Shown here: piece by piece, positions 5,302 to 63,845 of the stretch
Layout: every line of letters starts with the position of its first letter
How positions within the stretch are numbered: the first letter of the stretch is position 1
Origin: a virus
Taxonomy: Duplodnaviria; Caudoviricetes
IMG/VR virus record: IMGVR_UViG_3300009873_000008
Location: 8,944-72,943 of that record
Direction: 5' to 3' (one strand)
DNA: 64,000 nt
Notes under the pieces: generated by a model
Databases searched by the model: none
Told to the model about the DNA's origin: nothing
Seen by the model: the letters and a program-made list of their open reading frames with translations, nothing else
Position numbers and translations under genes: made by a program

Positions 5302-5787
5302 ATGATCCACCCCAGCGAGACCCCGGTGCCTCTTGGAATCTCTCCCGAACTGGTAGACGTGATCCGCACCGCGGTCGCGACTACCGCGAAGCCGGAGGGC
5401 TGGCGCGACTCCGAGTACGCCATGACGAAGGTGTCGGCCAACGAGGCGCTGCGATCGATCACCGAGGCGGAGGCTGCACACACGCAGCCCCGCCTCACGA
5501 TCTTTCAGTGGGGCGTCCTCAAGGGCGAGATCGCGCGCTACTGGAAGCACAGGCGTGGACCGCCCCGGGACATGGCGTTTGCCGCCTTCACCGCGCTCGA
5601 AGCCGGATTGCGTGCGGCCCCCGAGGCGAAGGAAGCGCTGATCGAACTGGCCGCCGAAGAGGATGCCGCCCGGCGAGTGGTCGAGGCCGAGATGTCCCTC
5701 ACCGTCGCCCAGGAGAACCTGGATCGAGTCCGGCGTGAGCAGGAAGAGCGCCGCCGCTCCACCTCGGAGCGTCATCGGATCTCCTGA
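5302..5787 (+). CDS. Hypothetical protein with C-terminal coiled coil
   Basis: 161 aa, SD and promoter motif. Confidence 0.65.
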   Translation: MIHPSETPVPLGISPELVDVIRTAVATTAKPEGWRDSEYAMTKVSANEALRSITEAEAAHTQPRLTIFQWGVLKGEIARYWKHRRGPPRDMAFAAFTALEAGLRAAPEAKEALIELAAEEDAARRVVEAEMSLTVAQENLDRVRREQEERRRSTSERHRIS

Positions 5788-6117
5788 GTGACACCCGAAG
5801 AGCGCACGCCTGAGTGGATGGCCGATGCCATCATGGTTGTGCTGCGCAAAGAACCCAATCTGACCGAGCGGTTCGGGATCCGCACGTTGGTCCTGGCTCT
5901 CCTCAAGGGCGAGGCGGACATTGAAGAGCGCCCGTGCAGGAAGACCAACGCCTGGGACCGCGACCACCTCTGCGGATTCGGTGGCGCACCTGGGAAAGTC
6001 AGAGTGACGTGCGAGCGCAGCGGCGGACTCCTCTACGACGAGATCCGAGACTGCGAGACGTGCCGGGGCACCGGCACAGAGCGCCGACTCAAGTACCGCT
6101 ACCAGGCGTACGATTGA
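5788..6117 (+). CDS. Hypothetical protein with DnaJ-like CxxCxGxG motif
   Basis: CETCRGTG. Confidence 0.55.
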   Translation: MTPEERTPEWMADAIMVVLRKEPNLTERFGIRTLVLALLKGEADIEERPCRKTNAWDRDHLCGFGGAPGKVRVTCERSGGLLYDEIRDCETCRGTGTERRLKYRYQAYD

Positions 6118-6508
6118 GTTCAGCGATTGAGCCGACCAGGTCGACCACTGGCCACACGATCACGAATCGCGGTGTCTCGTCTCCGTAGTCCCGCACTACA
6201 GCGTGAGCGAGGAGCAAGTTCTCGCGCTCGTTACGGGCTCTCGCCAACGCAATCGCATCGTCGATCGAAGCGAAGCGCGTCGCTTGGTCGAACTCGGTAG
6301 TCGCGATCGAGTCGGCACGACGGAGCGGACCATCGCGAAGAGTCCAGCCGGCGAGCAGACGAACGTCACACTCACTTGAGATCTGCGCGGCCGGATCGAG
6401 GCGACAGACGAAACGATGCGAGAGGGCAAGGCTCAAACGAACCTCCCCTCTCAGCACCTTGTCCCTGGGAATGTGAGGAAAGACGAGCAACAGGAACGGT
6501 CGGCTCAC
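6089..6508 (-). CDS. Hypothetical protein with C-terminal tag VVDLVGSIA
   Basis: 139 aa, overlaps the upstream stop. Confidence 0.55.
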   Translation of the reverse strand: MSRPFLLLVFPHIPRDKVLRGEVRLSLALSHRFVCRLDPAAQISSECDVRLLAGWTLRDGPLRRADSIATTEFDQATRFASIDDAIALARARNERENLLLAHAVVRDYGDETPRFVIVWPVVDLVGSIAELNRTPGSGT

Positions 6509-53070: not shown

Positions 53071-53783
53071 GCGAAGAGGCTCCTTCCGGTCTTGGCGTAG
53101 TAGGTGGCGCCGTAGCGGAAGATCGCGATGTTGGACGCGTCGTCCCAGTCGGTGCCGTTGGCGGAGATCACGCCAGAGATGAACGTCTCGGCGCCCGCGA
53201 GATTGGGTAGTTCTTCGAGAACGCGCGGACCGATCGACTCCCAGCGAATCCACCGCAGCGCTTCGTTCTCGTGTCCCGGAAACGGAATTGCCGTGAGCTT
53301 GGACCCGTCCTCGGTCACGGCGATGATGCCGCGAGGGCTGATCTCACCGAACTCATCGAACTTGGCCCACTCGACGTAGTCGAGTTTGTACGGCTTCTCC
53401 GTTGGAGGCGGTTCGAGTGATTCCAACACCCCGCGCATGGGATCGTCGGCACTGACTCCGCCCTCGTCGTACTCGTTCAGCGACAACTCGTACTGCTTGA
53501 GCGCTTCGTGATCGGTCTTGGGAATTCGCTGAAGCAAGATCTGCTTCACCGGCTCCGTCTTGTCGACATTCACGATGACCTGTTCGCCGAGTCTCACCGC
53601 GGAGAGCACATAGCCGCCCGCGACACTGAAAGGCGAACCAGCCAGCACCAACGCGAGCCGCTGGTCTTCGGAGATCCCGCCGAATACCGGGTAGGCGTTG
53701 AGACTCAACCCGACGTCAGGGTAGACGAGACGAGAAGTAGTCGGCCCGCTGCGAATGAAGTCGATGATCTCAGTGGGGGTCAT
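53067..53783 (-). CDS. Hypothetical protein
   Basis: 238 aa, coupled on both sides. Confidence 0.7.
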   Translation of the reverse strand: MTPTEIIDFIRSGPTTSRLVYPDVGLSLNAYPVFGGISEDQRLALVLAGSPFSVAGGYVLSAVRLGEQVIVNVDKTEPVKQILLQRIPKTDHEALKQYELSLNEYDEGGVSADDPMRGVLESLEPPPTEKPYKLDYVEWAKFDEFGEISPRGIIAVTEDGSKLTAIPFPGHENEALRWIRWESIGPRVLEELPNLAGAETFISGVISANGTDWDDASNIAIFRYGATYYAKTGRSLFA

Positions 53784-56700
53784 CCCGTCACCACCACGTC
53801 CTCGACCGGCCTCTTCTGCGGGCCCATGTGAGTAATGCCAGCAGCCTTGAGCTTGCTGATGACCGCGTCACGCTTCTCCGCGCTGCCTGCCTTGATCCTG
53901 GTCGCCCACCGCACGAAGTCGACCTTGTCACCGAGCAGCATCTCGGGTGTCGATCCGAAGCTGGAGGACATCATCTCCGAAACCGCGCGTTCCTGCACCG
54001 ACGCCGCGCGTCGAGTGGGAGGCAGCCCGGATTCCACGTTTTGCTTGTTGTAGTCCACCTTCGAGCCGTAGGAATCGCCGGGACGCGCCCACGTGGACGT
54101 GTAAGCCATGAGGCCCACATCGAAGGCGAACGTGCCCTGACTGTGGTACGGGGAGCCCTGCCTGTGGAGCCACGCGTAGATGTCGTTGCTTCCGCCGGTC
54201 TGGCAATCGGCCTCTGGAGACTGACCAGGTTGCGTGCCGTTGGGGTCCATGATCCCCACGTTTGCTCGCCGTTCGGTGGCGATGAGCGCCGTGCTGTGGA
54301 GGACTGAGTCGAGCAGCGCGCTGTTGCCGTGAGTCAGCGTCGCTCCCTGCTTACGGTAGGCGTCGATCTCGGCGTCCGTCACATCGAACCTACGGTAGGC
54401 GAAGCGGCCCCCTCCGATGTCCTCGGCGACAGGCTTGTAGCTCGGATTGCGCTTCCTGGTGCCGTCGGGGTTCGTCTCGTAGACGACCTGTCCGTTCTTC
54501 GTCTTGACCGAACCCTTCGGAGTACGAGCCGGCATGAATCGAGGGTCGTAACCGACACCCTTGTCCTTGGCGCCGCCACCGGACTCAGCGAACTTGCTGG
54601 CCCAGAACTCGATTCTCTCCTGAACGGTGCCGTTCTTCGGCTCCGCCTCGTAGTGCATCAGCCCAGTGCTGTAGCCCTCGATCTTCCGCAGCCATGCCAT
54701 GCGCCGCAGGTAGTTCAGTTCCTGATCCTGCTCAGTGGCCGGACGCAGGTCGAACCCGAGTTGTTTGCTGATGCCCTTCATCATGTCAGTGATCTGCTCG
54801 CGGGTCGCACCAGCGGGGAACTGAATGCGGACCTGTCCGTTCCGACCGGGATACTTCTGCTGCTTCTTGTTGCTCGCCACTAGGCCCTTGTGGTGGTCTG
54901 GCACGTACGTGATGAGCAGACGAGAAGTCGGCGACGCGCCGCCACCGGCTACGGCAGCACCGGTCACGACATCGGTCAGATCGATGTTGAACGTGCTCAT
55001 CTCGTTCGAGTCCTTATCGTAAGACGGCTCGTAGGTACCGTCCCACGTAGAGCCGCGGCTCACCTGGCCCTGACTCGAATGGCGCTTCACACCACTGGCG
55101 GAAGGCGTGGTGTAGTGGTTCAGCTTCATCGCGTTCAGCTTGTTCTGCGACTTGAGCTTGGCCTCGAACTCTGCCTTCTTCTTGTTGAAGTCAGCGAGAA
55201 CGGCTTCGTACTTCTTGAGCTTCTCGGCGTTGGCCTCCTCGTGCTTCTTCTTGGCCTCGGCCACGTCCGCGTCGTACTTCTCCTTTGCCTTGACCGCAGC
55301 CTCTCCCTGAGCCGCAATCAGTTCAGCCGAGGGCGCGAAAGGCTCGATGTCCCGCTGATCCTCTGGCACGTCCGCGACCGGCTTCAGCGCATAGCCGCCG
55401 TCCTTCACCTGACCGATGCGCAGAAATTCCGCCACGTAGTGGTCTGCCACGGCCTGGACCATCGGGTTGGCGGCTTGAGCGAGTGCTAGGGCCTTCTCGT
55501 ACGCCTTGGCTACGTACTGCGAGGCACCGGGCTCCTCGGCCGTGCCCTTCTTCCACTTGTCCAAGTGCTTCTCGGCCTTGGAGAGCTTCGAGCCGTCGGC
55601 CTTGAACTTGTCGCTCGTGAGACCGCTGGAGTGCCAGATGTCATTGACGAAGCTCGTCCAATCCACCATCTCTTTCGGCGGAGGCGGCGGGGAAAAGCCC
55701 GACAGCAGTGGCTTCTGTGGCTCTGCTGCGCTGAACCCGTCCACATCGCCGAGCATCGCCTGGAGTCGTGCCCGGGCCTCCGGCTCCAGCCAGAGCGAAC
55801 AGAACGGGTTGTCGCCCACCATGAAGAACTGGGCCCGACCGTCCTTGACGTCGTTCCCGCCGACCATCATGTCGACGCCCACGATGCCTTCGCGCTTGAG
55901 ATCCTCGGACTTGGGCACGCGAGACGTGACCGGGAAAGCGGGATCGTCCCAGTTGTTCGCGTCCTTGACGTCGGACGTCTGCACCGCCGCCGCCACCTCG
56001 GGCATCGGCTTGGTAGCGGTCTTGCCCTGGAGAAACTCATCGAGCCCGATCTGACTGCGGATCTCGGCTTCGATCTCACCGACCGGCCTGGAGTCGCCCT
56101 TGGTCTTCAGAGCCGCGGCGCGGGTCTTCGCCAGGGACGCGTACATCGCGCCGATGGACGCGCGCACCTTCTTGCGGCGCTCGTCCACAGCGGCGAGGAA
56201 GCCGGCTACCGTCTTGTCAGACGCGACGGTCGAGAACGCAGCGAGTTCGCCACGCTTGGCAGCGCCTTCGGCGTAGGCACGCCACATGTCCTTGTAGGTG
56301 TCCGACGGGATCGCCTCGGCGCGAGCCACCGTCGACTCGAACTCGGGAGCGGTCAGCGGCATCATCGGAATCGTCTCGCCGGCCCCCCAGGCGATCAGGA
56401 GCTTCTTCGGTAGCCCCTTGCTGTCCTCGTGCGTGACCCCCGGCGGTGCCTTCCACTTCAGGTAGTTGACCGCATCGTGGGACGAGTCGAAGAACTTCAT
56501 CGCCTGGCCGCGATCGACGTTCCTCAGTCGACCGTCGTCCTCGAACACGAAGTTTCCGCCGTGGTCGTCCATCTCCGAGGAGATGTAGTTGAGCACTCCG
56601 TAGCACTGAAGCTGACGGACGGCCGACTCACCGGCGACCCAGGGTGTCTGCTCGATGCCCTTGTCGCGGAAGCTCTGCTTGCGCGTGAACCACTGCATGA

Positions 56701-59700
56701 TGCCGGACTTGCCCTTGAACTTGGCGGTCCAGCAGTTCGGCGTGCCCGAGAGACCGAGCAGCATCTGGAGTCGGTTGGACGCCACTTCGCCCGCCGCGAA
56801 GGCATCGGCGACGGGCTTGAACATCCAGGCGCCGTCGGCCTTGTGGGCGCCCTTGAAGGTCTTGGAGGTGACCTTCGTGGGATCGTTCGTCGTACCGATC
56901 AGGTACTTCTCGTGGGCTCCCGAGTTGCCCGGGAAGAAGGAGTTCTTGTCGAGCCAGTTCTCGCTCTCGGCGGGTGCGGCTGGCGCACCGTGCGGCACGC
57001 CCAGAGACGTGAAGGCGGCAAGCTCCTCCTTCGTCATGCCCAGTGGGTTGTCGTGCGGGCTGACTCCGGCAGCCGCGTAAGACGACGCGGGAGCGGTTGC
57101 CGCGATCTCGGGCGTCGGACCGTTGACCGTCGTCGCGAGAGGCGGAACACCCGAAGCCGGCGGCAGGAGCTTCTGAGCCTTGTTCAAGAACTTCTGGAGC
57201 GCCTTCTCCTGCATCGGAGTGAGCGGCTTGCCGGCGCCGAGCGTCTTGTTCCAGATGTCGAGAACGTTCTTGTGCTCCCAGTCGGTGATCGCGAACTTGG
57301 TCTTCGCGTTGAGCGCCGCGTAGAGCGCCGGAATGTCCTTGAGCGTCGCAGCTGGAGGCGGAGCGGGAGCCGCGACTGGAGCCGCGACTGGAACGGGCTC
57401 AGGTGCGGGAGCAGGCTTGGGGGGCTCGGGAGCAGCCGCAGCCGCAGCACTGGATGGAGCCGTCGGCTGAGGCATCGCAGCGAACGCAGCGAGACCAGCC
57501 GCGGCACTGGCTGCGGACAATCCACCGGGAAGCAGCCCCTTGTAGTAGTTCGCCTGGTCAGCGGGGAGCGAATCGTCGAGCCACTTGGACGGGTTCTTGA
57601 GCAGCCCGTCGGCACCGTTCAGCGCCTGGTCGAACATCTCCTTGATGAGGGGCAACGACATCTGCATGACGCCAGCGGGCGCCCAATCGACCTTGAACTG
57701 ATCCTGAATCTGCTTGCAGACCGCTGCGATCTTCTTGGGGCCGACCTCACCGGCGCTCGTGTAGATCGCACCGTCGGCGAGAGCCGCCGCGAACTTCTGC
57801 TTCAGATAGTTGCGCTGGCCGTTCGTGAGGTGATGCCACTTCGAGATCTTCTTCTGCTTCGACCACGTGTAGGAGTGGCCGCCGTAGAGAACCGGCGTCT
57901 GCGCCAGCGCGGACGTGGGGGTCACGGGGGCCGGAGCAGGCTCCGGCACCGGGACCGCGCCGGGAACCGGGTCAGTTGACGGGGCAGCCGGCTCCTTGGC
58001 CGGCTCCTTGGGCTGGTTCTCTTTCCACTTGGTGAGCCAGTCGTCGTAGGCCAGGTACATGTAGCCGAGCGGAGTCGCGCTGTAGCCGGACGCCTTCCCG
58101 AGCGCGTTGACGATGCGCTTGGTGAGCTTGACGTCGGCGCCCATGTTGTTGGCGTACGCGATGAAGACATCGGCGGTGGGCGTCTTCTGCTTGGCGAGAG
58201 CGTCCCAGTTCGACGCAAGCCACTGCTTGAATTCAGCCTCGTCGAAGTTCTTGAGCGCAACCTCGTCGGCGAGCGCATCGATCTTGACGGCAAAGTCTCC
58301 CCACCAATCGATGCCGTACTTCTCGGCCCACTCGTGGATCGCTTCACCTGAGTGAGCCGAGATATTCGCGTTGATCTCCGCAATGGAGCCGCCGAGCGCT
58401 CCGACGGCCGCGATCTCGCTGAGCATCTCCTTCAGCTTGGCCAGGAAGCCGATCTCGTCGGGCTTCTTCTTGAGGGCCTCTTGTGCCGCGGCGAGAAGTT
58501 CCTGCTGTCCGCTCGTCGAGAGATGAACGAGCTTCAGATCGGCCACGGCCTTGAGGGCCGCAACAGACCCCATCGCCTGGTCCTTGAAGCCCTTCATCGC
58601 CTCGATCGCGGTATCGAGCAGATCCTTCTTGTTCGCGTCCGACAAGGAAGACCAGTTGACGTTGAGCGATGTGCTCTGAACGCCGAGCAAGGCTCCGCTG
58701 ATGGCGCTCTTGCTCAGCTTGATACCGATCGTATTCTCGACGCCGTCGTAGATCGCCTTGGCGAGTTCTTCGCCGACGTCCACCCCAGACCAAGCGGCGG
58801 ACACGGCCGCTTCGCGAACGATCTGGACCACCTTGTTCTTTTCGTCGGGCTTGAGCGACGAGAGGTGTTGTCCTCGCTTGGCGATCTCGTCCTTCAGGGC
58901 CGAGTAGGCCGAGCCGTAGTCGAGTTGCTTTCCGAACTTCTTGGCGAACTCGATCGAGAGCGCACCAGCGAACTGGCCGGGCGACGCCGTCGAGTCATAG
59001 CCAGTAGGGATCATCTCGGCGGCCATCGCCGGGACGTGGGTCAGATCCTCGGGATCCGGCTTCAGTAGCGGCGAGAGCGCGTCCGAGACTGCCTTCTGCA
59101 ACTCGAACAGAGCGGGCTTGGTGAACTGGATCTCTCCACCGGCAGCAAGCGCCGCCTTGGCGGCATCCTCCGCTGCGGTCCAGTTGAGATGGCCGGTCGA
59201 CTTCATCACGTCGAGCGCAGCCTTCAGCGCTGCGTCGGCGACCACTGTCCGCTGTTCGTCGGACAGCATGTCGATCAGCTTGGGACCCGGCTCCGGCTCC
59301 GGCTCGGGCTCGGGCTCGGGCTCGGGAGTCGGCTCGGGCGCCGGGGACGGGGCTTCCTCGGGCGGCTCGTCGAGTGCGGCCCAATCGCCCTTGGGAGCCT
59401 CTTCCGGTTCCTCCTCGCCCGCCTCTGGCTCTGCCGATCCCGGCTCGCTGGCTCCCGCACCGCCGAAGGTGTAGGGCTTCCCGTCAGGACCGAACAGCGT
59501 GTTCTTGCCGTAGTCGAAGGTCAGATTGAGCAGTTCCGGCTGGGGCTGGTCGGTGCCCGCGACCTTCAGATGCTCGTCTCCGAGATCGCTCTGCGAGTCG
59601 CCGAAGCTCAGGATGTCCTTGAGCTTCGCCGTCATCGGGTTGTTGTCCTTGGCGAACTGAGACAACAGCTTCCAGCGCTTGATCGTGAACTTGAGCCAGT

Positions 59701-59965
59701 TCTCGGCCGCGGCGATGCGCAGCTTCCCGCAGGCCAGATCGCCTTCGAGCTTGTCCTTCTTCTTGCCGCTCGCCTGCGCAAGACTCTTCATCAGGTCGCG
59801 CTGCTTCTCGTGCGCCTGTGCGAGATTCTTTCGTCGGGTCGCGATGGCAGCCACGACACGAACCAACTCGATCGGGTTGGCCTTCTTGGGCGTCTCCGGG
59901 TCCGCCGTAGGTCCGGCGGGTGGAGCCTTCTTGCACTCGACTTCGAGGAGCGTGGCGTTCAGCAC
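53780..59965 (-). CDS. 2061-aa multidomain protein with HipA/PI3K-like kinase domain and possible C-terminal ADP-ribosyltransferase-like domain
   Basis: WMFKP, GEVAS, DDHGGNF, VDRGQAMKFF at about 56450-56930; H...S/T...E pattern at the C-terminus; EP and AP linkers. Confidence 0.7.
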   Translation of the reverse strand: MLNATLLEVECKKAPPAGPTADPETPKKANPIELVRVVAAIATRRKNLAQAHEKQRDLMKSLAQASGKKKDKLEGDLACGKLRIAAAENWLKFTIKRWKLLSQFAKDNNPMTAKLKDILSFGDSQSDLGDEHLKVAGTDQPQPELLNLTFDYGKNTLFGPDGKPYTFGGAGASEPGSAEPEAGEEEPEEAPKGDWAALDEPPEEAPSPAPEPTPEPEPEPEPEPEPGPKLIDMLSDEQRTVVADAALKAALDVMKSTGHLNWTAAEDAAKAALAAGGEIQFTKPALFELQKAVSDALSPLLKPDPEDLTHVPAMAAEMIPTGYDSTASPGQFAGALSIEFAKKFGKQLDYGSAYSALKDEIAKRGQHLSSLKPDEKNKVVQIVREAAVSAAWSGVDVGEELAKAIYDGVENTIGIKLSKSAISGALLGVQSTSLNVNWSSLSDANKKDLLDTAIEAMKGFKDQAMGSVAALKAVADLKLVHLSTSGQQELLAAAQEALKKKPDEIGFLAKLKEMLSEIAAVGALGGSIAEINANISAHSGEAIHEWAEKYGIDWWGDFAVKIDALADEVALKNFDEAEFKQWLASNWDALAKQKTPTADVFIAYANNMGADVKLTKRIVNALGKASGYSATPLGYMYLAYDDWLTKWKENQPKEPAKEPAAPSTDPVPGAVPVPEPAPAPVTPTSALAQTPVLYGGHSYTWSKQKKISKWHHLTNGQRNYLKQKFAAALADGAIYTSAGEVGPKKIAAVCKQIQDQFKVDWAPAGVMQMSLPLIKEMFDQALNGADGLLKNPSKWLDDSLPADQANYYKGLLPGGLSAASAAAGLAAFAAMPQPTAPSSAAAAAAPEPPKPAPAPEPVPVAAPVAAPAPPPAATLKDIPALYAALNAKTKFAITDWEHKNVLDIWNKTLGAGKPLTPMQEKALQKFLNKAQKLLPPASGVPPLATTVNGPTPEIAATAPASSYAAAGVSPHDNPLGMTKEELAAFTSLGVPHGAPAAPAESENWLDKNSFFPGNSGAHEKYLIGTTNDPTKVTSKTFKGAHKADGAWMFKPVADAFAAGEVASNRLQMLLGLSGTPNCWTAKFKGKSGIMQWFTRKQSFRDKGIEQTPWVAGESAVRQLQCYGVLNYISSEMDDHGGNFVFEDDGRLRNVDRGQAMKFFDSSHDAVNYLKWKAPPGVTHEDSKGLPKKLLIAWGAGETIPMMPLTAPEFESTVARAEAIPSDTYKDMWRAYAEGAAKRGELAAFSTVASDKTVAGFLAAVDERRKKVRASIGAMYASLAKTRAAALKTKGDSRPVGEIEAEIRSQIGLDEFLQGKTATKPMPEVAAAVQTSDVKDANNWDDPAFPVTSRVPKSEDLKREGIVGVDMMVGGNDVKDGRAQFFMVGDNPFCSLWLEPEARARLQAMLGDVDGFSAAEPQKPLLSGFSPPPPPKEMVDWTSFVNDIWHSSGLTSDKFKADGSKLSKAEKHLDKWKKGTAEEPGASQYVAKAYEKALALAQAANPMVQAVADHYVAEFLRIGQVKDGGYALKPVADVPEDQRDIEPFAPSAELIAAQGEAAVKAKEKYDADVAEAKKKHEEANAEKLKKYEAVLADFNKKKAEFEAKLKSQNKLNAMKLNHYTTPSASGVKRHSSQGQVSRGSTWDGTYEPSYDKDSNEMSTFNIDLTDVVTGAAVAGGGASPTSRLLITYVPDHHKGLVASNKKQQKYPGRNGQVRIQFPAGATREQITDMMKGISKQLGFDLRPATEQDQELNYLRRMAWLRKIEGYSTGLMHYEAEPKNGTVQERIEFWASKFAESGGGAKDKGVGYDPRFMPARTPKGSVKTKNGQVVYETNPDGTRKRNPSYKPVAEDIGGGRFAYRRFDVTDAEIDAYRKQGATLTHGNSALLDSVLHSTALIATERRANVGIMDPNGTQPGQSPEADCQTGGSNDIYAWLHRQGSPYHSQGTFAFDVGLMAYTSTWARPGDSYGSKVDYNKQNVESGLPPTRRAASVQERAVSEMMSSSFGSTPEMLLGDKVDFVRWATRIKAGSAEKRDAVISKLKAAGITHMGPQKRPVEDVVVTG

Positions 59966-59974
59966 GTGGACACC

Positions 59975-60292
59975 CTAGTCGTCGTCGATGGAACGGCGGA
60001 AGTCCAGTGGACTACGACCTGGCTGATTCTTCAACTGCCTGTCGGAGGCGGCAGCCATCTCCTTCAGGGCCTCCCGCAAGGCGGTCGACGCGGCAGCACT
60101 GGATCGACCCAGTGCTTCTTGGAGCTTGCGGAACAGATCTTCGTGGATCTCGAAGGTGGAGAAGAACCTACGGCAGTTGATGCACTGCCGGCGCCGCTGC
60201 TTGAGTTCTCCGAACGAGAACCCGCGCTCTTCGACTTGGATGATGGTCTTCTTGACCTTGGACTCCAGCGTGGAGCAGCGCGGGCACTTCAT
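59975..60292 (-). CDS. NrdR-like N-terminal zinc-ribbon protein
   Basis: MKCPRC...SKV...RRRQCINCRRFFSTFE; no ATP-cone; ATGA start. Confidence 0.7.
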   Translation of the reverse strand: MKCPRCSTLESKVKKTIIQVEERGFSFGELKQRRRQCINCRRFFSTFEIHEDLFRKLQEALGRSSAAASTALREALKEMAAASDRQLKNQPGRSPLDFRRSIDDD

Positions 60293-60594
60293 CGGGCGCG
60301 CAATCTCGATCCGACACGCTTCTCTGGCGCCATCCGCTTCGGTCCCGTCGTTTCTTGCCCGGGCCGCATCTTCCTGGCACCCGTCGGCACCCGCTTGTGA
60401 TAGAGCGTGCGCTGGCGCCGATTGTAGTCGGTCTTCTTGTACCGGCGAGTAGAGAAGAGATCGTTGATCTGACGCACTCGGTTCGCGACCCGGTCCGCCC
60501 GATGGGGCTCGCGGGCAGAGATCCACTCCAGGATCTCTCCCTCCCACCCGATGGTGAGCAACGGCCGGCGGACGAGAGTCAGATGACAATCCAC
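60289..60594 (-). CDS. Basic protein with LVRRPLLTIG motif
   Basis: 101 aa between terL and the zinc-ribbon gene. Confidence 0.55.
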   Translation of the reverse strand: MDCHLTLVRRPLLTIGWEGEILEWISAREPHRADRVANRVRQINDLFSTRRYKKTDYNRRQRTLYHKRVPTGARKMRPGQETTGPKRMAPEKRVGSRLRAR

Positions 60595-63500
60595 GAGTTG
60601 AACTCTCCTCCCGTAGGATCGTAACGTCTTCCCTCGATCGCGTCCTCATCCTCGTCGGGCCAGAGCACCTCTCCGTTGGACCACTGCGGGCCGGCCCCCG
60701 GCGAGTCGATCACCATCTGACCGCGCATCGGTCCAAGCGGATCACCAGTCTTGCCGTGCTCGGTCAGGTAGTAGACAAGTCCTGCCAGAGCGTCAGCAAG
60801 GTCTTTGCTTCCTTTGGGCGGGTGCTTGATCTTCTTCCCGTCCTCGCCGATCTCCAGTTCCTTCAGTTCCTTGTCCAGCACCGGGTGGTAGGGACAGATG
60901 ATCCGCTGCTCGTAGATGGCCTGCCGCAACATCAGGTACGGCTTCATCCGAGCGACTCGCTCGCCCACCTCTTCGGTCTTCAGACCGCGGCGCTTGAACA
61001 TCTGAAGGTTTGGCGGGGACATGTACTGGTCCATCGACACGGACCTGATCGGCATGCCGCCCGAGATGCACTGATAGATGACACCCCGGACCTCGCCATG
61101 GTCAATGTCACCGCCGTCAGGAGCCAACGCGCGCAGGACGCCATCGACGTGAATGACAGGCGCGTTCTCCAAGACGCGTTCGTTGGTTTCTGGATTCCGC
61201 CGCCACACCTCGGTCGTCCCCGCGACGTGACCGGTGACCAGACCGCAGGCGCACTGAGTGGTCGCCATGTCGATGTGTGCGTGACGATTCGCCGTCTGGC
61301 AACAGATCGGAATCGGCTCGTCGTTGGCGTTTCTGGTCATCAGCTTCGCCCAGTTGACCTGAAGCGTCTGATGGGTCGTCCACTCCGGCTGCCTGAACAA
61401 GTTGAGCCGACGTCGATCGAACATCTGATCGATCGCCGGACGACGCGTGATGAAGAGGCGCCCAACGAAGTCGGTCGCGATACCGGCGATGTCTCGGGTG
61501 GCTCCGTCCGGGTCGTTGCGGAACTCGCTCAGGTAGTCCTCGGGGATCTTGAAGATAAGCGAGCCCGGGAGCGCCTCTTCGTCCTCCTTCTCTAGGAGCT
61601 TGCAGCGACCTTCCTTCGAGTTCACCGAGACGCGGTACCACTTCTGGCCGCGATAGGGTTCGGGGTGAACGTTCCAGATCGCGTAGTCGCGAACGAAGAC
61701 ACCAACCCCTTCGTCGTCGTCTTCGGCCGCCGTCCTGATCCGTCGCTCGGTGAAGTCGTTCGTCGAGCGCTTCGACGAGACGAGCATGATGAGACCCTTC
61801 ACGCCGTGGCGCTTGTATCGGGCCTTCACGCGTCGTGCGAGCGCGTTGTAGATCATGGTCGCCTTGTCTTCGGCCTTGGCACTGGCCGACCCAGTAGCGA
61901 CCTTGCCCTCACCCATGAAGTTCGTGTTGTGGACGACGAGCCCGTTCGCGACGAAGTTGCCGCCGGGCAGCGACATCACGTCATACGTCTGATGGCGTCC
62001 CGCACTTCGGACTGCGACAACCCGGGCCACAGACGTCGCTCGTCCCACACTTCGTACTTCCAGCCCGAGAGCGTGCAGAACTGCGAGCAGGCGGCGGCCT
62101 TGGCTCGTTCCTTCGCGTTGTAGGTGAAGCCGCGCGGCTTGATCTCCACCATCACGATCGACCCGTCCGTCATCGTCACCAGGAAGTCGGGGATCGTGAA
62201 CCGCTGCTTCCCCTCCCAGATGTAGGGAACGCCCAGCGGTTCGTACCGGAAACTGAGAACGGACGAGCATTCGTCCAAGAGCAGCATCGCTCGCTGCTCC
62301 CACTTCGACCGGAAGCCGATCTTCGTCTGACCAGGCTTCGGCTGACCCTTCTTCGTCTCCGCCCAGCCCAGGTAGGTGAAGTCGCCCTTCTTCGCTCTCC
62401 AGACCGAGTTCCTGCTGATCTTCTGCTTCGTCTCCTCGGAGTGCTTGAACACTCCCTTCCGCTTCGTGTTCGCTGCCGCGATCTTCGCCTTCGACTCCGG
62501 GCTGTGAGAGAAGGCTTGCTTGGTAGCGATCATCCGGTCCCGGAAGGCTGGATCCGACCAACGCTTCTTCATGCGAAGCGACGCGCCAGCCCGCCGCTCG
62601 CTCGACTCCCAGGGGTCGGTCGGCGGTTTCCGCTTCGCGCGCTCTGCCGTCACGAAGGCTTCCAGTTCCGCGTCCGGCACTCCGTCCACCGGAATCCCGG
62701 CCTTCCTCGCCTTCGTCCTGATGTTCGCGAGTCTGATCTTCTCGCGCGTCTCGGGTGACTTCTTCGTGCCCGTCTGACGGCGACGCGTCGCCTCGGCCAT
62801 CTTGGCCTTGGCCTCCGGCGTGTGCATCTTCCCGAAGAATGGGTTGCTTGCCCCACTCCGGTCTGGCTGGGTCGACAACGATCACCTCGTCGCCGGGCTT
62901 CAGATCCTTCAGGAACACGTAGTCGAGATCCGACCAGGGCCGGCGCACCAGGAACGGATGGCGTTCCGTGACCTTGATCGTGCGTCCGTCGTCGAACTCG
63001 ACCTCGAAGACCTCCGCCACCGACGCGGGCCTGATGAACCCGGCATCGACCTGGCCCTCGCCGGTCTTTTCGTTGTAGACGACGATGGGTCCATACGTCA
63101 ATCCGTCATTCTTCGACGAATCATGGAGGTCGGACACCGGGAAGTAGCCGTCGGGCGTGAGGATCTGAGTGTCAGCGGTCACGCACTCGTCGACGATCGC
63201 GAAGATCACGTTGAGACCGAGCGCCGCGGCGTCCTGACTCGCGCCGCCGACGATGTAGATCCCCTTCTTCCTGAAGCGGATCTCTTCCATCGTCTCTTCG
63301 TACTTGCCGAGGAACCACTTGCTGAGCGCGAGCTTCTTGCAGATACCACCGAAGACGACCCGGCGCGCTGCCGCAACGGTGCGCGAGATGGGAACGATGT
63401 GGATGGGTTCGCCTTCGGCCAATCCCAGGGTGTGTTGTGGGTTCTTCAAGCAGTTGAGTTCGTAGAGCATCCGCATGCAGGCGGTGGTGGCAAAGAAGTC

Positions 63501-63845
63501 CTTACCCCAACCAATCGCGCCGGTGAGGATCGCCTCGTGGTAGTCGCCCTCGAACAACTCGGCCATGTCATCGCGCAGTTGCGGATACATGTCCTTGCCG
63601 GTCTCGCCGACGAGTTCCTCGTTCATGAGCCACTCACGAACGGGAACCGGGTTCTCCTCCCACTCGATCTTGGAGACCTCATCTACGATCTGTGATCGAC
63701 CGGTCTGCTGCCACTGATCCAGAATCTTGCGGAGCATGATCTGCTCGCGCTCGTTGAGCGAATTGGCCTGCTTGGCGGCGATTTTCTTTCTCTCGTCGCG
63801 AGTTCTGATGCTGCGCCAGCGCCCGTTGTCTTGAATGATCGACAC
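60579..63845 (-). CDS. terL: Terminase large subunit (intein-containing precursor; 668 aa after splicing)
   Basis: Walker A GAIGWGKD, Walker B AIVDE, nuclease HIDMA...MDQY...KDLADA. Confidence 0.9.
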   Translation of the reverse strand: MSIIQDNGRWRSIRTRDERKKIAAKQANSLNEREQIMLRKILDQWQQTGRSQIVDEVSKIEWEENPVPVREWLMNEELVGETGKDMYPQLRDDMAELFEGDYHEAILTGAIGWGKDFFATTACMRMLYELNCLKNPQHTLGLAEGEPIHIVPISRTVAAARRVVFGGICKKLALSKWFLGKYEETMEEIRFRKKGIYIVGGASQDAAALGLNVIFAIVDECVTADTQILTPDGYFPVSDLHDSSKNDGLTYGPIVVYNEKTGEGQVDAGFIRPASVAEVFEVEFDDGRTIKVTERHPFLVRRPWSDLDYVFLKDLKPGDEVIVVDPARPEWGKQPILREDAHAGGQGQDGRGDASPSDGHEEVTRDAREDQTREHQDEGEEGRDSGGRSAGRGTGSLRDGRAREAETADRPLGVERAAGWRVASHEEALVGSSLPGPDDRYQASLLSQPGVEGEDRGSEHEAEGSVQALRGDEAEDQQELGLESEEGRLHLPGLGGDEEGSAEAWSDEDRLPVEVGAASDAALGRMLVRSQFPVRTAGRSLHLGGEAAVHDPRLPGDDDGRVDRDGGDQAARLHLQREGTSQGRRLLAVLHALGLEVRSVGRATSVARVVAVRSAGRHQTYDVMSLPGGNFVANGLVVHNTNFMGEGKVATGSASAKAEDKATMIYNALARRVKARYKRHGVKGLIMLVSSKRSTNDFTERRIRTAAEDDDEGVGVFVRDYAIWNVHPEPYRGQKWYRVSVNSKEGRCKLLEKEDEEALPGSLIFKIPEDYLSEFRNDPDGATRDIAGIATDFVGRLFITRRPAIDQMFDRRRLNLFRQPEWTTHQTLQVNWAKLMTRNANDEPIPICCQTANRHAHIDMATTQCACGLVTGHVAGTTEVWRRNPETNERVLENAPVIHVDGVLRALAPDGGDIDHGEVRGVIYQCISGGMPIRSVSMDQYMSPPNLQMFKRRGLKTEEVGERVARMKPYLMLRQAIYEQRIICPYHPVLDKELKELEIGEDGKKIKHPPKGSKDLADALAGLVYYLTEHGKTGDPLGPMRGQMVIDSPGAGPQWSNGEVLWPDEDEDAIEGRRYDPTGGEFNSWIVI
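61926..63185 (-). mobile_element. Intein, 420 aa, inserted at Walker B DE|T
   Basis: Starts CVTADTQILT, block B VTERHPF, block F TYDV, ends VVHN followed by Thr. Confidence 0.95.
61976..62878 (-). CDS. NUMOD3-repeat plus PD-(D/E)XK (TnsA-like) endonuclease in the +1 frame inside the intein
   Basis: NPFFGKMHTPEAKAKM, HSPESKAKI, HSEETKQKI; FRSKWE...FRYEP...IPDFLV...MVEIKP; GAGGTGAT SD before TTG. Confidence 0.85.
   Translation of the reverse strand: MSTQPDRSGASNPFFGKMHTPEAKAKMAEATRRRQTGTKKSPETREKIRLANIRTKARKAGIPVDGVPDAELEAFVTAERAKRKPPTDPWESSERRAGASLRMKKRWSDPAFRDRMIATKQAFSHSPESKAKIAAANTKRKGVFKHSEETKQKISRNSVWRAKKGDFTYLGWAETKKGQPKPGQTKIGFRSKWEQRAMLLLDECSSVLSFRYEPLGVPYIWEGKQRFTIPDFLVTMTDGSIVMVEIKPRGFTYNAKERAKAAACSQFCTLSGWKYEVWDERRLWPGLSQSEVRDAIRRMT

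What the first reader, a model, noticed from the sequence alone, without database searches (positions are those of the whole stretch)
61926..63185. Terminase intein whose endonuclease is overprinted in the +1 frame
Seen: the intein has intact splicing motifs (C1, TERH, HN/T) and stays open for 420 codons. Its central ~270 residues translate as featureless sequence, while the +1 frame (61976-62878) encodes a coherent NUMOD3-repeat plus PD-(D/E)XK nuclease. The codons of the intein's LKPGDEVIV segment (GAC GAG GTG ATC GTT GTC) double as an SD (GAGGTGAT) and TTG start, and the nuclease stop lies inside block F. Inference: splicing and homing are translated separately, so the nuclease need not wait for splicing, and the essential terminase forces the junk frame to remain stop-free. 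I recall separate-frame intein endonucleases being reported in actinobacteriophages, so this is rare rather than certainly new. High GC3 also makes stops in this frame naturally scarce.
Basis: partly seen in the sequence, partly recalled or inferred. Interest (0 to 1): 0.85.

Follow-up and report, generated by a model that had tools for sequence, protein, structure and literature searches.

The report
Terminase intein with overprinted homing nuclease
A phage DNA-packaging gene carries a self-splicing protein insert (an intein), and a complete DNA-cutting "homing" enzyme gene is written inside that insert one base out of step; the layout is real, kept by selection and shared by a dozen related phages, but this kind of intein was first described in 2025, so it is a new variant with a new nuclease type.

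Summary
On the minus strand, the 1088-codon terminase gene (60579-63845) carries a 420-codon class-1 intein (61926-63185). A 300-codon ORF in the +1 frame (61976-62878) encodes a NUMOD3 + TnsA-like PD-(D/E)XK nuclease.

- **Which frame codes:** GC3 periodicity, dN/dS (0.3-0.5 against about 1) and a confident fold (pLDDT 91, best match TnsA) show that the nuclease frame is the coding one. The intein's central 276 residues are its unstructured "shadow".
- **Selection on the host frame:** the terminase frame has no stops where 5-10 are expected. Over nine lineages that is 0 observed against 65 expected.
- **Conservation:** the same +1 layout is in all twelve related lineages whose DNA I could read. 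A thirteenth locus has a decayed nuclease.
- **Not an artefact:** an independent 2024 wastewater assembly shows the same frames.
- **Mobility:** intein-free alleles exist with 100%, 99% and 93% identical exteins, which points to recent gain or loss.

Inteins with homing endonucleases in another frame were already reported (Gosselin, Arsenault & Gogarten 2025; Phillips et al. 2026). This scan has also found such inteins before on other DNA, with HNH and other nucleases. New here are the nuclease family, the +1 geometry and the uncultured jumbo-phage setting. Translation, splicing and cleavage remain untested.

The parts
60579..63845 (-). Terminase large subunit gene (PF27249 MJ0330_N family), one 1088-codon ORF including the intein
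   Evidence: the 668-aa intein-less allele P0003 is 93% identical in the exteins
63186..63845 (-). N-extein (aa 1-220), ending in the Walker-B-like IVDE
61926..63185 (-). Class-1 intein, 420 codons (C1 ... HN, followed by T+1)
   Evidence: Pfam Intein_splicing 36.9 bits, cut-off 35.8; motifs; Hint fold with Z 19.9 to the NpuDnaB intein
62865..63185 (-). Intein N-terminal splicing domain (intein residues 1-107; blocks A and B with T73, H76)
   Evidence: Ten-residue pLDDT block means 73-92 over residues 1-100 and 65 over 101-110; conserved in 7 relatives
62037..62864 (-). Shadow linker: intein residues 108-383, the terminase-frame reading of the nuclease gene. Acidic (D+E 59, K+R 34), predicted disordered, stop-free
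   Evidence: pLDDT about 31; dN/dS 0.92-1.23; 0 stops against 5.1 expected; composition
61926..62036 (-). Intein C-terminal splicing domain (residues 384-420; blocks F and G, H419, N420)
60579..61925 (-). C-extein (starts TNFMGEG)
61976..62878 (-). Homing-endonuclease gene in the +1 frame: 300 codons, TTG start, TGA stop
   Evidence: GC by codon position 0.53/0.51/0.86; dN/dS 0.30-0.50; pLDDT 91.2
62880..62888 (-). Shine-Dalgarno-like GAGGTGATC; the GAGG core lies 6 nt before the TTG. Made from intein codons D-E-V-I
   Evidence: By my own knowledge it is complementary to the usual 16S rRNA 3' tail. GAGGTGG + ATG sits at the same place in L004 and AGGAG + ATG in L012, but no clear SD is seen in L006, L011 or L013
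62384..62875 (-). Nuclease N-terminal helical DNA-binding region with NUMOD3 repeats (about aa 2-165)
   Evidence: Pfam NUMOD3, 2 stretches, best at aa 124-155; helices H21-164
62030..62383 (-). Nuclease catalytic PD-(D/E)XK core (about aa 166-283): E194 (62297-62299), D231 (62186-62188), E245 (62144-62146), K247 (62138-62140)
   Evidence: E194, D231 and E245 are invariant in 49 homologues and in the 7-member close clade, where the lysine of the ExK motif is invariant too; Foldseek best match TnsA 1t0f, E 6e-6; profile hits to TnsA and T7 endonuclease I; coordinates
61976..62036 (-). True dual-coding overlap: the nuclease C-terminal tail (WPGLSQSEVR...T*) over intein block F (ARVVAVRSAGRHQTYDV). 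This is where selection switches from the nuclease frame to the terminase frame
   Evidence: Site entropy is lowest here, and the most variable codon position changes from nuclease pos3 to nuclease pos2 (= terminase pos3) about 30 nt before the stop

Best explanation
This is a mobile class-1 intein in the Walker-B region (VDE|T/SNF) of the terminase large subunit of an uncultured, probably jumbo, phage from activated sludge. It is effectively a mini-intein. About 107 N-terminal and 37 C-terminal residues form the Hint splicing fold. They are joined by a 276-residue acidic, disordered linker. That linker has no function of its own: it is the terminase-frame reading of a separate gene written one base downstream (+1 frame). 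That gene encodes a two-part homing endonuclease with NUMOD3 helical DNA-binding repeats and a TnsA-like PD-(D/E)XK catalytic core (E194, D231, E245-x-K247).

The most likely mechanism is as follows. Ribosomes reading the terminase frame make a precursor that splices to give active terminase. This is inferred from intact motifs and from the gene being essential. A minority of ribosomes start internally at the TTG behind the GAGGTGATC Shine-Dalgarno-like site and make the 33-kDa nuclease (inferred). In mixed infections the nuclease cuts intein-free terminase alleles near the insertion site, and repair copies the intein-plus-nuclease unit in (inferred from the sporadic distribution).

Because the terminase is essential, selection removes any codon choice in the nuclease gene that would create a stop in the terminase frame. 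No T-ending nuclease codon is ever followed by a codon starting AA, AG or GA (shown). The layout most plausibly arose when a free-standing nuclease gene invaded a mini-intein.
For: **The frames.**
- GC at codon positions is 0.53/0.51/0.86 in the nuclease frame, and the phase is shifted in the terminase frame.
- dN/dS is 0.30-0.50 in the nuclease frame and 0.92-1.23 in the terminase frame over the same bases.
- The frame of selection switches about 30 nt before the nuclease stop.

**Stop avoidance.**
- There are 0 stops against 5.1 expected in the window (P = 0.0012-0.003 across runs).
- There are 0 against 65 expected summed over nine lineages.
- None of the 18 T-ending codons precedes an AA/AG/GA codon, although 83 of about 300 codons start that way.

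**The nuclease.**
- Pfam hits NUMOD3 and Tn7_TnsA-like_N.
- The model has pLDDT 91, and its top structural matches are TnsA 1t0f and 1f1z.
- The catalytic E, D and E are invariant in 49 homologues.
- 2142 mostly free-standing relatives of 150-360 aa exist.

**The intein.**
- The motifs are intact.
- The Hint fold matches at Z 19.9, rmsd 1.7 A over 136 residues, and residues 108-383 have pLDDT below 50.

**Conservation.**
- The same +1 layout is in L004/L019, L006, L011, L012, L013/14/21/22, L015, L017, L018, L023, L024/25 and L026.
- An independent wastewater contig differs by 68 substitutions plus one in-frame 3-nt insertion.

**Mobility.**
- Intein-free alleles have 100% (P0004/P0027), 99.1% (P0002/P0005) and 93.3% (window/P0003) identical exteins.
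- At least 4 gains or losses are needed on the extein tree.

**Start sites.** A start codon is present at the domain boundary in every lineage. A good SD is present in three of them: the window, L004 and L012.
Against: - There is no direct evidence of translation of either frame, of splicing with a 276-residue linker, or of cleavage.
- TTG is a weak start, and L006, L011 and L013 have no convincing SD.
- No promoter-like site lies inside the gene, so the nuclease would have to be read from the terminase mRNA while other ribosomes pass through.
- The target site is unknown.
- Comparison of extein DNA with the empty allele shows no clear co-conversion tract.
- L016 shows the intein persists after the nuclease ORF has decayed, so the nuclease is dispensable for maintenance and could be inactive in any single lineage.
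- The only RNA-labelled run with a matching contig is probably DNA.
Confidence: 0.8

Rival explanations
1. Artefact: the true sequence has an ordinary in-frame endonuclease domain, and two compensating indel errors of assembly or sequencing at the domain boundaries created the apparent frame change.
For: The window is a metagenome-assembled contig. One low-depth relative contig (X4) does carry a -1/+1 indel pair 5 nt apart.
Against: Twelve related lineages from independent samples and assemblers show the same two frames. The source contig is identical at depth 30, and an independent 15-kb contig has only an in-frame 3-nt insertion. If the terminase frame were never translated here it should hold about 5 stops, and about 65 over nine lineages. 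None is seen.
Confidence: 0.01
2. Relic: in this phage the nuclease ORF is an inactive remnant of a past invasion that has not yet picked up stops. The element is now just a vertically inherited mini-intein with a long linker.
For: L016 has a broken nuclease ORF in an open host frame, and L015 keeps only the 158-aa core. The start is TTG. There is no expression evidence.
Against: dN/dS in the nuclease frame is 0.3-0.5 against about 1 in the other frame. The catalytic residues are intact and invariant. The ORF is complete in 11 lineages, with nuclease identity down to 41%. Intein-free alleles with identical or 99% identical exteins indicate recent movement.
Confidence: 0.08
3. Frameshift fusion: the nuclease is not started internally. 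It is made by a programmed +1 ribosomal shift at the end of the intein's N-terminal domain, giving an N-extein-IntN-nuclease fusion protein.
For: In the fractured relatives L009 and L010 the same nuclease family is fused in frame to N-extein + IntN, so such a fusion is tolerated. SD-like sequences can also stimulate frameshifting (my own knowledge). Three lineages lack a clear SD + start.
Against: In the window a TGA in the +1 frame lies two codons before the TTG, leaving almost no room for a shift. I saw no slippery motif conserved across the lineages. Every lineage has an ATG, GTG or TTG at the boundary.
Confidence: 0.06
4. Passenger nuclease: the nuclease is a free-standing selfish gene that merely lodges in the intein as a safe harbour. 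It cuts some other site (for example alleles with an empty mini-intein, or an unrelated locus), so intein and nuclease do not home as one unit into the intein-free terminase.
For: The family is overwhelmingly free-standing. The Dassa 2009 model has nucleases that target inteins. No co-conversion tract is visible around the extein junction.
Against: No allele of this intein without the nuclease region was found among relatives; the mini-inteins P0025, P0031 and P0032 sit at a different site 4 residues upstream and are unrelated. Alleles differ by presence or absence of the whole intein + nuclease unit in otherwise identical exteins.
Confidence: 0.1

Closest known systems
Non-canonical actinobacteriophage inteins with homing endonucleases in a separate frame or on the opposite strand (Gosselin, Arsenault & Gogarten, bioRxiv 10.1101/2025.01.02.630785)
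   Same: A contiguous intein, many of them in the terminase large subunit, with intact splicing blocks. A complete endonuclease ORF lies between the blocks but outside the intein frame. The host frame is stop-free. The proposed origin is invasion of an intein by a free-standing nuclease gene. The distribution is sporadic and suggests ongoing transfer.
   Different: Their same-strand case is an endonuclease VII-like enzyme in frame 3; their other cases are antisense LAGLIDADG or VSR-like. Here the enzyme is a NUMOD3 + TnsA-like PD-(D/E)XK nuclease in frame 2 (+1). The host is an uncultured phage from sludge and wastewater, with relatives on 218-275-kb contigs. The terminase family is different (PF27249).
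[quoted passage not shown]
   Same: An overlapping-frame nuclease inside an intein, interpreted as secondary invasion of a mini-intein. [quoted passage not shown]
   Different: A cellular gene (dnaX) with a LAGLIDADG-type enzyme, reported as antisense. This is a different nuclease family.
Fractured genes with split inteins and a free-standing endonuclease (Dassa et al. 2009, PMC2677866)
   Same: A nuclease gene of restriction-enzyme-like fold sits between the N- and C-terminal intein parts, terminase among the hosts, and the same invasion model applies. Relatives L009 and L010 of this nuclease family really are fractured.
   Different: In the window the host gene is not broken: one ORF runs through. 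Dassa's nucleases are Vsr-like or GIY-YIG with a non-coding spacer. Here the catalytic motif is the classical E...D...ExK.
ShiLan-type out-of-frame HNH insertions in phage methylase genes (Arsenault et al. 2025, PMC11855218)
   Same: A hidden endonuclease in another frame of an insert that keeps the host frame open, with the same open question of how it is translated.
   Different: ShiLan has no splicing domain. Here a complete Hint fold flanks the nuclease.
TnsA, the Tn7 transposase subunit (PDB 1t0f, 1f1z)
   Same: The catalytic-domain fold and E/D/ExK residues match.
   Different: There is no TnsA C-terminal domain and there are no TnsB/C partners. NUMOD3 repeats replace them, and the context is a homing element, not a transposon.

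Membership tests
Class-1 intein (Hint splicing domain) | Cys/Ser at position 1 and block B TxxH | tested here: met
   C1 (63183-63185), T73, H76
Class-1 intein (Hint splicing domain) | C-terminal His-Asn followed by a Cys/Ser/Thr nucleophile | tested here: met
   H419, N420, T+1
Class-1 intein (Hint splicing domain) | Profile match and Hint fold | tested here: met
   PF14890 at 36.9 bits (cut-off 35.8). VIA-align Z 19.9, rmsd 1.7 A over 136 residues to the NpuDnaB intein, followed by 28 more inteins or Hint domains with Z above 8
Class-1 intein (Hint splicing domain) | Insert absent at exactly this point from orthologous alleles | tested here: met
   P0003, P0005 and P0027 read VDE|SNF without any insert
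Class-1 intein (Hint splicing domain) | Protein splicing activity | not testable with these tools
   Inferred only from intact motifs and the essential host gene
Inteins with the homing endonuclease outside the intein frame (Gosselin et al. 2025) | Complete nuclease ORF between the splicing blocks, in another frame or strand | tested here: met
   +1-frame ORF 61976-62878 between block B and block F
Inteins with the homing endonuclease outside the intein frame (Gosselin et al. 2025) | Host frame stays open across the nuclease gene, beyond chance | tested here: met
   0 stops against 5.1 expected in the window; 0 against 65 over nine lineages
Inteins with the homing endonuclease outside the intein frame (Gosselin et al. 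2025) | Nuclease of one of the reported types (endonuclease VII-like, antisense LAGLIDADG, antisense VSR-like) | tested here: not met
   The Pfam and fold matches are TnsA-like PD-(D/E)XK with NUMOD3. I therefore file it as a new variant of the kind
TnsA-N-like PD-(D/E)XK nuclease with NUMOD3 DNA-binding repeats | Profile matches above the curated cut-offs | tested here: met
   PF08722 at 43.3 (cut-off 26.5); PF07460 at 48.9 (cut-off 20.4)
TnsA-N-like PD-(D/E)XK nuclease with NUMOD3 DNA-binding repeats | Catalytic E ... D ... E-x-K residues and restriction-enzyme-like fold | tested here: met
   E194, D231 and E245 are invariant in 49 homologues; K247 is present in the window and its column is invariant in the 7 close relatives. 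Foldseek gives TnsA 1t0f at E 6e-6
TnsA-N-like PD-(D/E)XK nuclease with NUMOD3 DNA-binding repeats | Site-specific DNA cleavage | not testable with these tools
Fractured gene with split intein (Dassa et al. 2009) | Host gene broken into two ORFs, each with half an intein | tested here: not met
   A single 1088-codon ORF. The relatives L009 and L010 do meet this feature
Canonical bifunctional intein | Endonuclease domain translated in the intein frame | tested here: not met
   In the intein frame, residues 108-383 have no domain match and pLDDT about 31

The most novel reading that the evidence does not exclude
Overprinting and gene fracture may be two outcomes of the same event, the invasion of a mini-intein by a free-standing NUMOD3/TnsA-like nuclease gene, with base composition deciding which one survives. 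In GC-rich phages (58-63% GC, 12 lineages) the host frame can be cleared of the 5-10 stops, and a contiguous intein with an overprinted nuclease persists for a long time (dS above 1). In AT-rich phages (L009 at 44% GC, L010 at 38% GC, 19 stops in the host frame) the gene stays broken and survives only as a split intein with the nuclease fused to IntN. On this reading, these loci would be natural intermediates on the routes to both split inteins and canonical nuclease-bearing inteins.
Probability: 0.3. Interest if true: 0.6.

Novelty: new variant of a known kind. Interest (0 to 1): 0.45.

Why it matters
- **A new nuclease type for inteins.** It adds a fourth or fifth nuclease type, and the first TnsA-like PD-(D/E)XK enzyme with NUMOD3 repeats that I could find in the searched literature, to the short list of inteins whose mobility gene is a separate overlapping gene.
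- **A wider setting.** It shows the layout is not confined to cultured actinobacteriophages. It is conserved and mobile in uncultured large phages from wastewater and freshwater.
- **A clean case of overlap-driven selection.** One frame carries all the protein information. The other is constrained only not to stop, and this leaves a measurable codon-choice signature: no T-ending codon before AA, AG or GA.
- **A point about splicing.** It implies that a Hint domain can tolerate a 276-residue disordered linker, which is of practical interest for intein engineering.
- **Evolution of inteins.** It supports the "splicing first, nuclease invades later" model.
- **Possible use.** The nuclease family is a candidate source of new site-specific enzymes.

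Tried and rejected
- **Intron check.** An Rfam scan of 61700-63400 at E <= 1 found no group I or II intron or any other RNA family. An intron reading is not supported, and the open host frame and Hint fold make it unnecessary.
- **Internal promoter.** The sigma-70 promoter scan found none within the gene, so I claim no internal promoter.
- **Co-conversion.** Sliding identity between the window's exteins and the empty allele L007 showed no clear tract (82-97% throughout). The identical 15 nt after the junction in the window and L006 may simply reflect a conserved motif with GC-biased codons.
- **Deposited phages.** tblastn against GenBank phages gave only distant hits: nuclease at most 35% identity (T4-type gp4 'head completion' proteins and a Xanthomonas phage ORF), terminase about 30% identity (Vibrio phages). 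No cultured relative exists.
- **First IMG/VR scan.** The scan with the single protein gave only two short NUMOD3 matches. The alignment-based scans worked better.
- **Bacterial genomes.** They held only distant (26-32%) free-standing TnsA-like genes in Actinomycetota. This is too weak to name a host.
- **Missing DNA.** DNA for P0004 and P0056 could not be fetched. P0004 is counted as carrying the layout only from its shadow-frame protein similarity.
- **RNA evidence.** RNA-labelled runs held only small pieces and are probably DNA, so there is no expression evidence either way.
- **Literature.** Searches for NUMOD3 or TnsA together with intein found nothing relevant.
- **Earlier scan findings.** A look-up by sequence found no look-alike of this nuclease.
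- **Not run.** I did not run complex prediction, because the report makes no binding claim.
Full report
**What is there**

The window is the last 64 kb of a 72.9-kb IMG/VR virus contig (CheckV completeness 26%). The source is an activated-sludge metagenome. On the minus strand, one ORF of 1088 codons (60579-63845) encodes a terminase large subunit of the PF27249 family with an Intein_splicing match.

The intein is residues 221-640 (63185..61926). It starts with Cys, has block B T73-E-R-H76, and ends His-Asn followed by Thr. A 300-codon ORF in the +1 frame (62878..61976, TTG to TGA) hits NUMOD3 and Tn7_TnsA-like_N above Pfam's cut-offs. This includes the GAGGTGATC-CG-TTG formed by the intein codons D-E-V-I-V-V, and the stop inside block F.

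**Which frame carries information**

- **GC periodicity.** Across the overlap, GC at the three codon positions is 0.53/0.51/0.86 in the nuclease frame. This is the same pattern as in the exteins (0.58/0.38/0.82). The terminase frame shows the pattern shifted by one.
- **dN/dS.** Between the window and two relatives, dN/dS is 0.30-0.50 in the nuclease frame and 0.92-1.23 in the terminase frame over the same nucleotides.
- **Nuclease structure.** With 49 homologues, AlphaFold2 gives a confident model (mean pLDDT 91.2): seven helices (the NUMOD3 region) followed by an alpha/beta core. Foldseek's only matches below E 1e-3 are TnsA structures. A profile search also finds TnsA and T7 endonuclease I. 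E194, D231 and E245 are invariant in the 49 homologues, and the lysine of the ExK motif (K247) is invariant in the close clade.
- **Intein structure.** The intein translated in its own frame folds confidently only at residues 1-107 and 384-420. Together these superpose on mini-inteins (Z 19.9, rmsd 1.7 A, 136 residues to the NpuDnaB intein). Residues 108-383 have pLDDT about 31. This segment is acidic (59 D+E, 34 K+R, a single Lys), the mirror of the basic nuclease (62 K+R).

The intein is therefore functionally a mini-intein with a long disordered linker that is the shadow of another gene.

**Is the open host frame more than chance?**

Yes. Permuting synonymous codons within the nuclease ORF gives on average 5.1 stops in the terminase frame. 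Only 0.12-0.3% of permutations gave none, depending on the run. With extein codon usage the mean is 8.0 and P is 1e-4 to 2e-4. The mechanism is visible in the sequence. 83 of about 300 nuclease codons begin AA, AG or GA, yet none of the 18 T-ending codons precedes one. The third frame has 7 stops.

**Relatives**

A search of 5.8 billion proteins found terminases with and without inserts. Every relative of this intein whose DNA could be read has the nuclease in the +1 frame of an open host frame:
- L004/L019, L006 (an NCBI metagenome assembly), L011, L012, L013/14/21/22, L017 and L018;
- L015, which keeps only the 158-aa catalytic core;
- from IMG/VR, L023, L024/25 and L026.

In L016 the nuclease ORF is broken into two pieces while the host frame is intact. 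This is the expected decay stage of a homing element. Over nine lineages tested, the host frame has 0 stops where 65 are expected. Nuclease identity among the seven aligned lineages falls to 41%, and dS between lineages exceeds 1. The layout is therefore old and stable, not a transient accident.

Site-entropy profiles over nine lineages show that the most variable codon position is the nuclease third position up to about 30 nt before the nuclease stop. It then becomes the terminase third position. The last 60 nt are the most conserved, and this is the only truly dual-constrained stretch.

**Artefact excluded**

The contig of the probable source run is identical to the window at depth about 30. 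An independent 2024 wastewater run has a 15-kb contig covering 61824-63289. It differs by 68 substitutions and a single in-frame GCT insertion. Together with the conservation and the stop avoidance, this rules out compensating sequencing indels.

**Mobility**

On a tree of exteins (43 proteins, inteins removed), the seven proteins with this intein need at least four gains or losses. Three intein-containing alleles have intein-free partners with 100% (P0004/P0027, 663/663), 99.1% (P0002/P0005) and 93.3% (window/P0003) identical exteins, all reading VDE|SNF at the empty site. That is the signature of recent invasion or recombinational loss. I could not see a co-conversion tract in the DNA.

**How the nuclease is made**

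This is the weakest link.
- All lineages have an ATG, GTG or TTG at the end of the N-terminal splicing domain.
- Three have a good Shine-Dalgarno match at proper spacing: GAGGTGATC in the window, GAGGTGG in L004 and AGGAG in L012.
- L006, L011 and L013 do not.
- No promoter-like site lies inside the gene.

Internal initiation on the terminase mRNA is the simplest reading. A +1 frameshift fusion cannot be excluded, but I saw no conserved slippery motif, and in the window a +1-frame TGA lies two codons before the TTG.

**Comparison with what is known**

- Gosselin, Arsenault and Gogarten (bioRxiv 10.1101/2025.01.02.630785) surveyed about 800 actinobacteriophage inteins. They reported 63 with non-canonical nucleases: an endonuclease VII-like enzyme in frame 3, and antisense LAGLIDADG and VSR-like enzymes. 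Many are in terminase genes, and the authors propose invasion by free-standing nuclease genes.
- Phillips et al. (bioRxiv 10.64898/2026.09.14.751524) describe an out-of-frame nuclease in the cyanobacterial dnaX intein.
- Arsenault et al. (PMC11855218) describe out-of-frame HNH inserts without splicing domains.
- Dassa et al. (PMC2677866) describe fractured genes with split inteins and free-standing Vsr-like or GIY-YIG nucleases.
- This scan has also noted terminase inteins with overprinted HNH or other nucleases on other DNA (17 notes in at least 11 genomes). None has this nuclease.

The principle is therefore known. What is new is the nuclease family (classical E-D-ExK TnsA-like core with NUMOD3 repeats), the +1 geometry, the uncultured large-phage host group, and the quantitative evidence for selection and recent mobility. 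Full-text searches linking NUMOD3 or TnsA with inteins found nothing relevant.

**A lead from the relatives**

The nuclease family is overwhelmingly free-standing: 2142 hits, mostly 150-360 aa. A few long hits are informative.
- In L009 (same terminase family, 44% GC), the N-extein, the N-terminal intein half and the nuclease are one ORF. The C-terminal intein half plus C-extein is a separate overlapping ORF with its own start. There are 19 stops in the C-extein frame across the nuclease in L009.
- L010 (a DNA polymerase A gene, 38% GC) has the same organisation.

These are fractured genes with the nuclease fused to IntN. All overprinted cases are 58-63% GC. This suggests, but does not show, that base composition decides whether an invaded intein survives as a contiguous overprinted element or as a split intein.

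**Verdict**

The kind of element is already described, so this is a new variant. Interest is moderate.

Noticed in passing
L009:1-3568 and L010:1686-6453: Fractured genes: a terminase (44% GC) and a DNA polymerase A (38% GC). In each, the N-extein, the N-terminal intein half and a NUMOD3/TnsA-like nuclease form one ORF. The C-terminal intein half plus C-extein is a separate overlapping ORF with its own ATG or GTG. This differs from Dassa's fractured genes, where the nuclease is free-standing behind a spacer.
   Followed up: partly
P0004/P0027, P0002/P0005 (terminase proteins; L004 for P0002): Intein-containing and intein-free terminase alleles have 100% and 99.1% identical exteins. P0004 differs from P0027 by two whole inteins. 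This is a natural before-and-after pair for homing.
   Followed up: partly
Terminase family PF27249 (P0001-P0043; L023, L026): Inteins occur at four or more sites of this terminase, about residues 110, 220, 362 and 592 of the 668-aa form, plus a mini-intein 4 residues upstream of site 220. Their nucleases are LAGLIDADG, HNH or HTH-bearing. Host frames reach over 1780 codons in L023 and L026.
   Followed up: partly
L016:1001-5329 and 5387-6329: A relative whose overprinted nuclease ORF has decayed into two pieces while the terminase frame stays open. The neighbouring T4-type portal gene also carries an intein.
   Followed up: partly
window 62122-62127: A low-depth freshwater contig (run X4) has a 1-nt deletion at 62122 and a 1-nt insertion at 62127. 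This compensating pair shifts two codons in both frames; it may be a real variant or an assembly error.
   Followed up: no
window 59975-60649 (-): The ORF just downstream of, and overlapping, the terminase 3' end contains an NrdR-like zinc ribbon (CPRC ... CINC). Relatives show a weak Zn_ribbon_NrdR hit at the same position.
   Followed up: no
window 53780-59965 (-): A 2061-codon ORF follows the terminase. Genes of 2019-2354 codons occupy the same position in L005, L006 and L007, so the synteny is conserved.
   Followed up: no
window 62037-62864 (-), terminase frame: The shadow peptide is strongly acidic with a single Lys, the automatic mirror of a Lys/Arg-rich nuclease. After splicing, the free intein would carry a 276-residue acidic disordered loop. 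Whether that has any effect, for example on the basic nuclease, is unknown.
   Followed up: no
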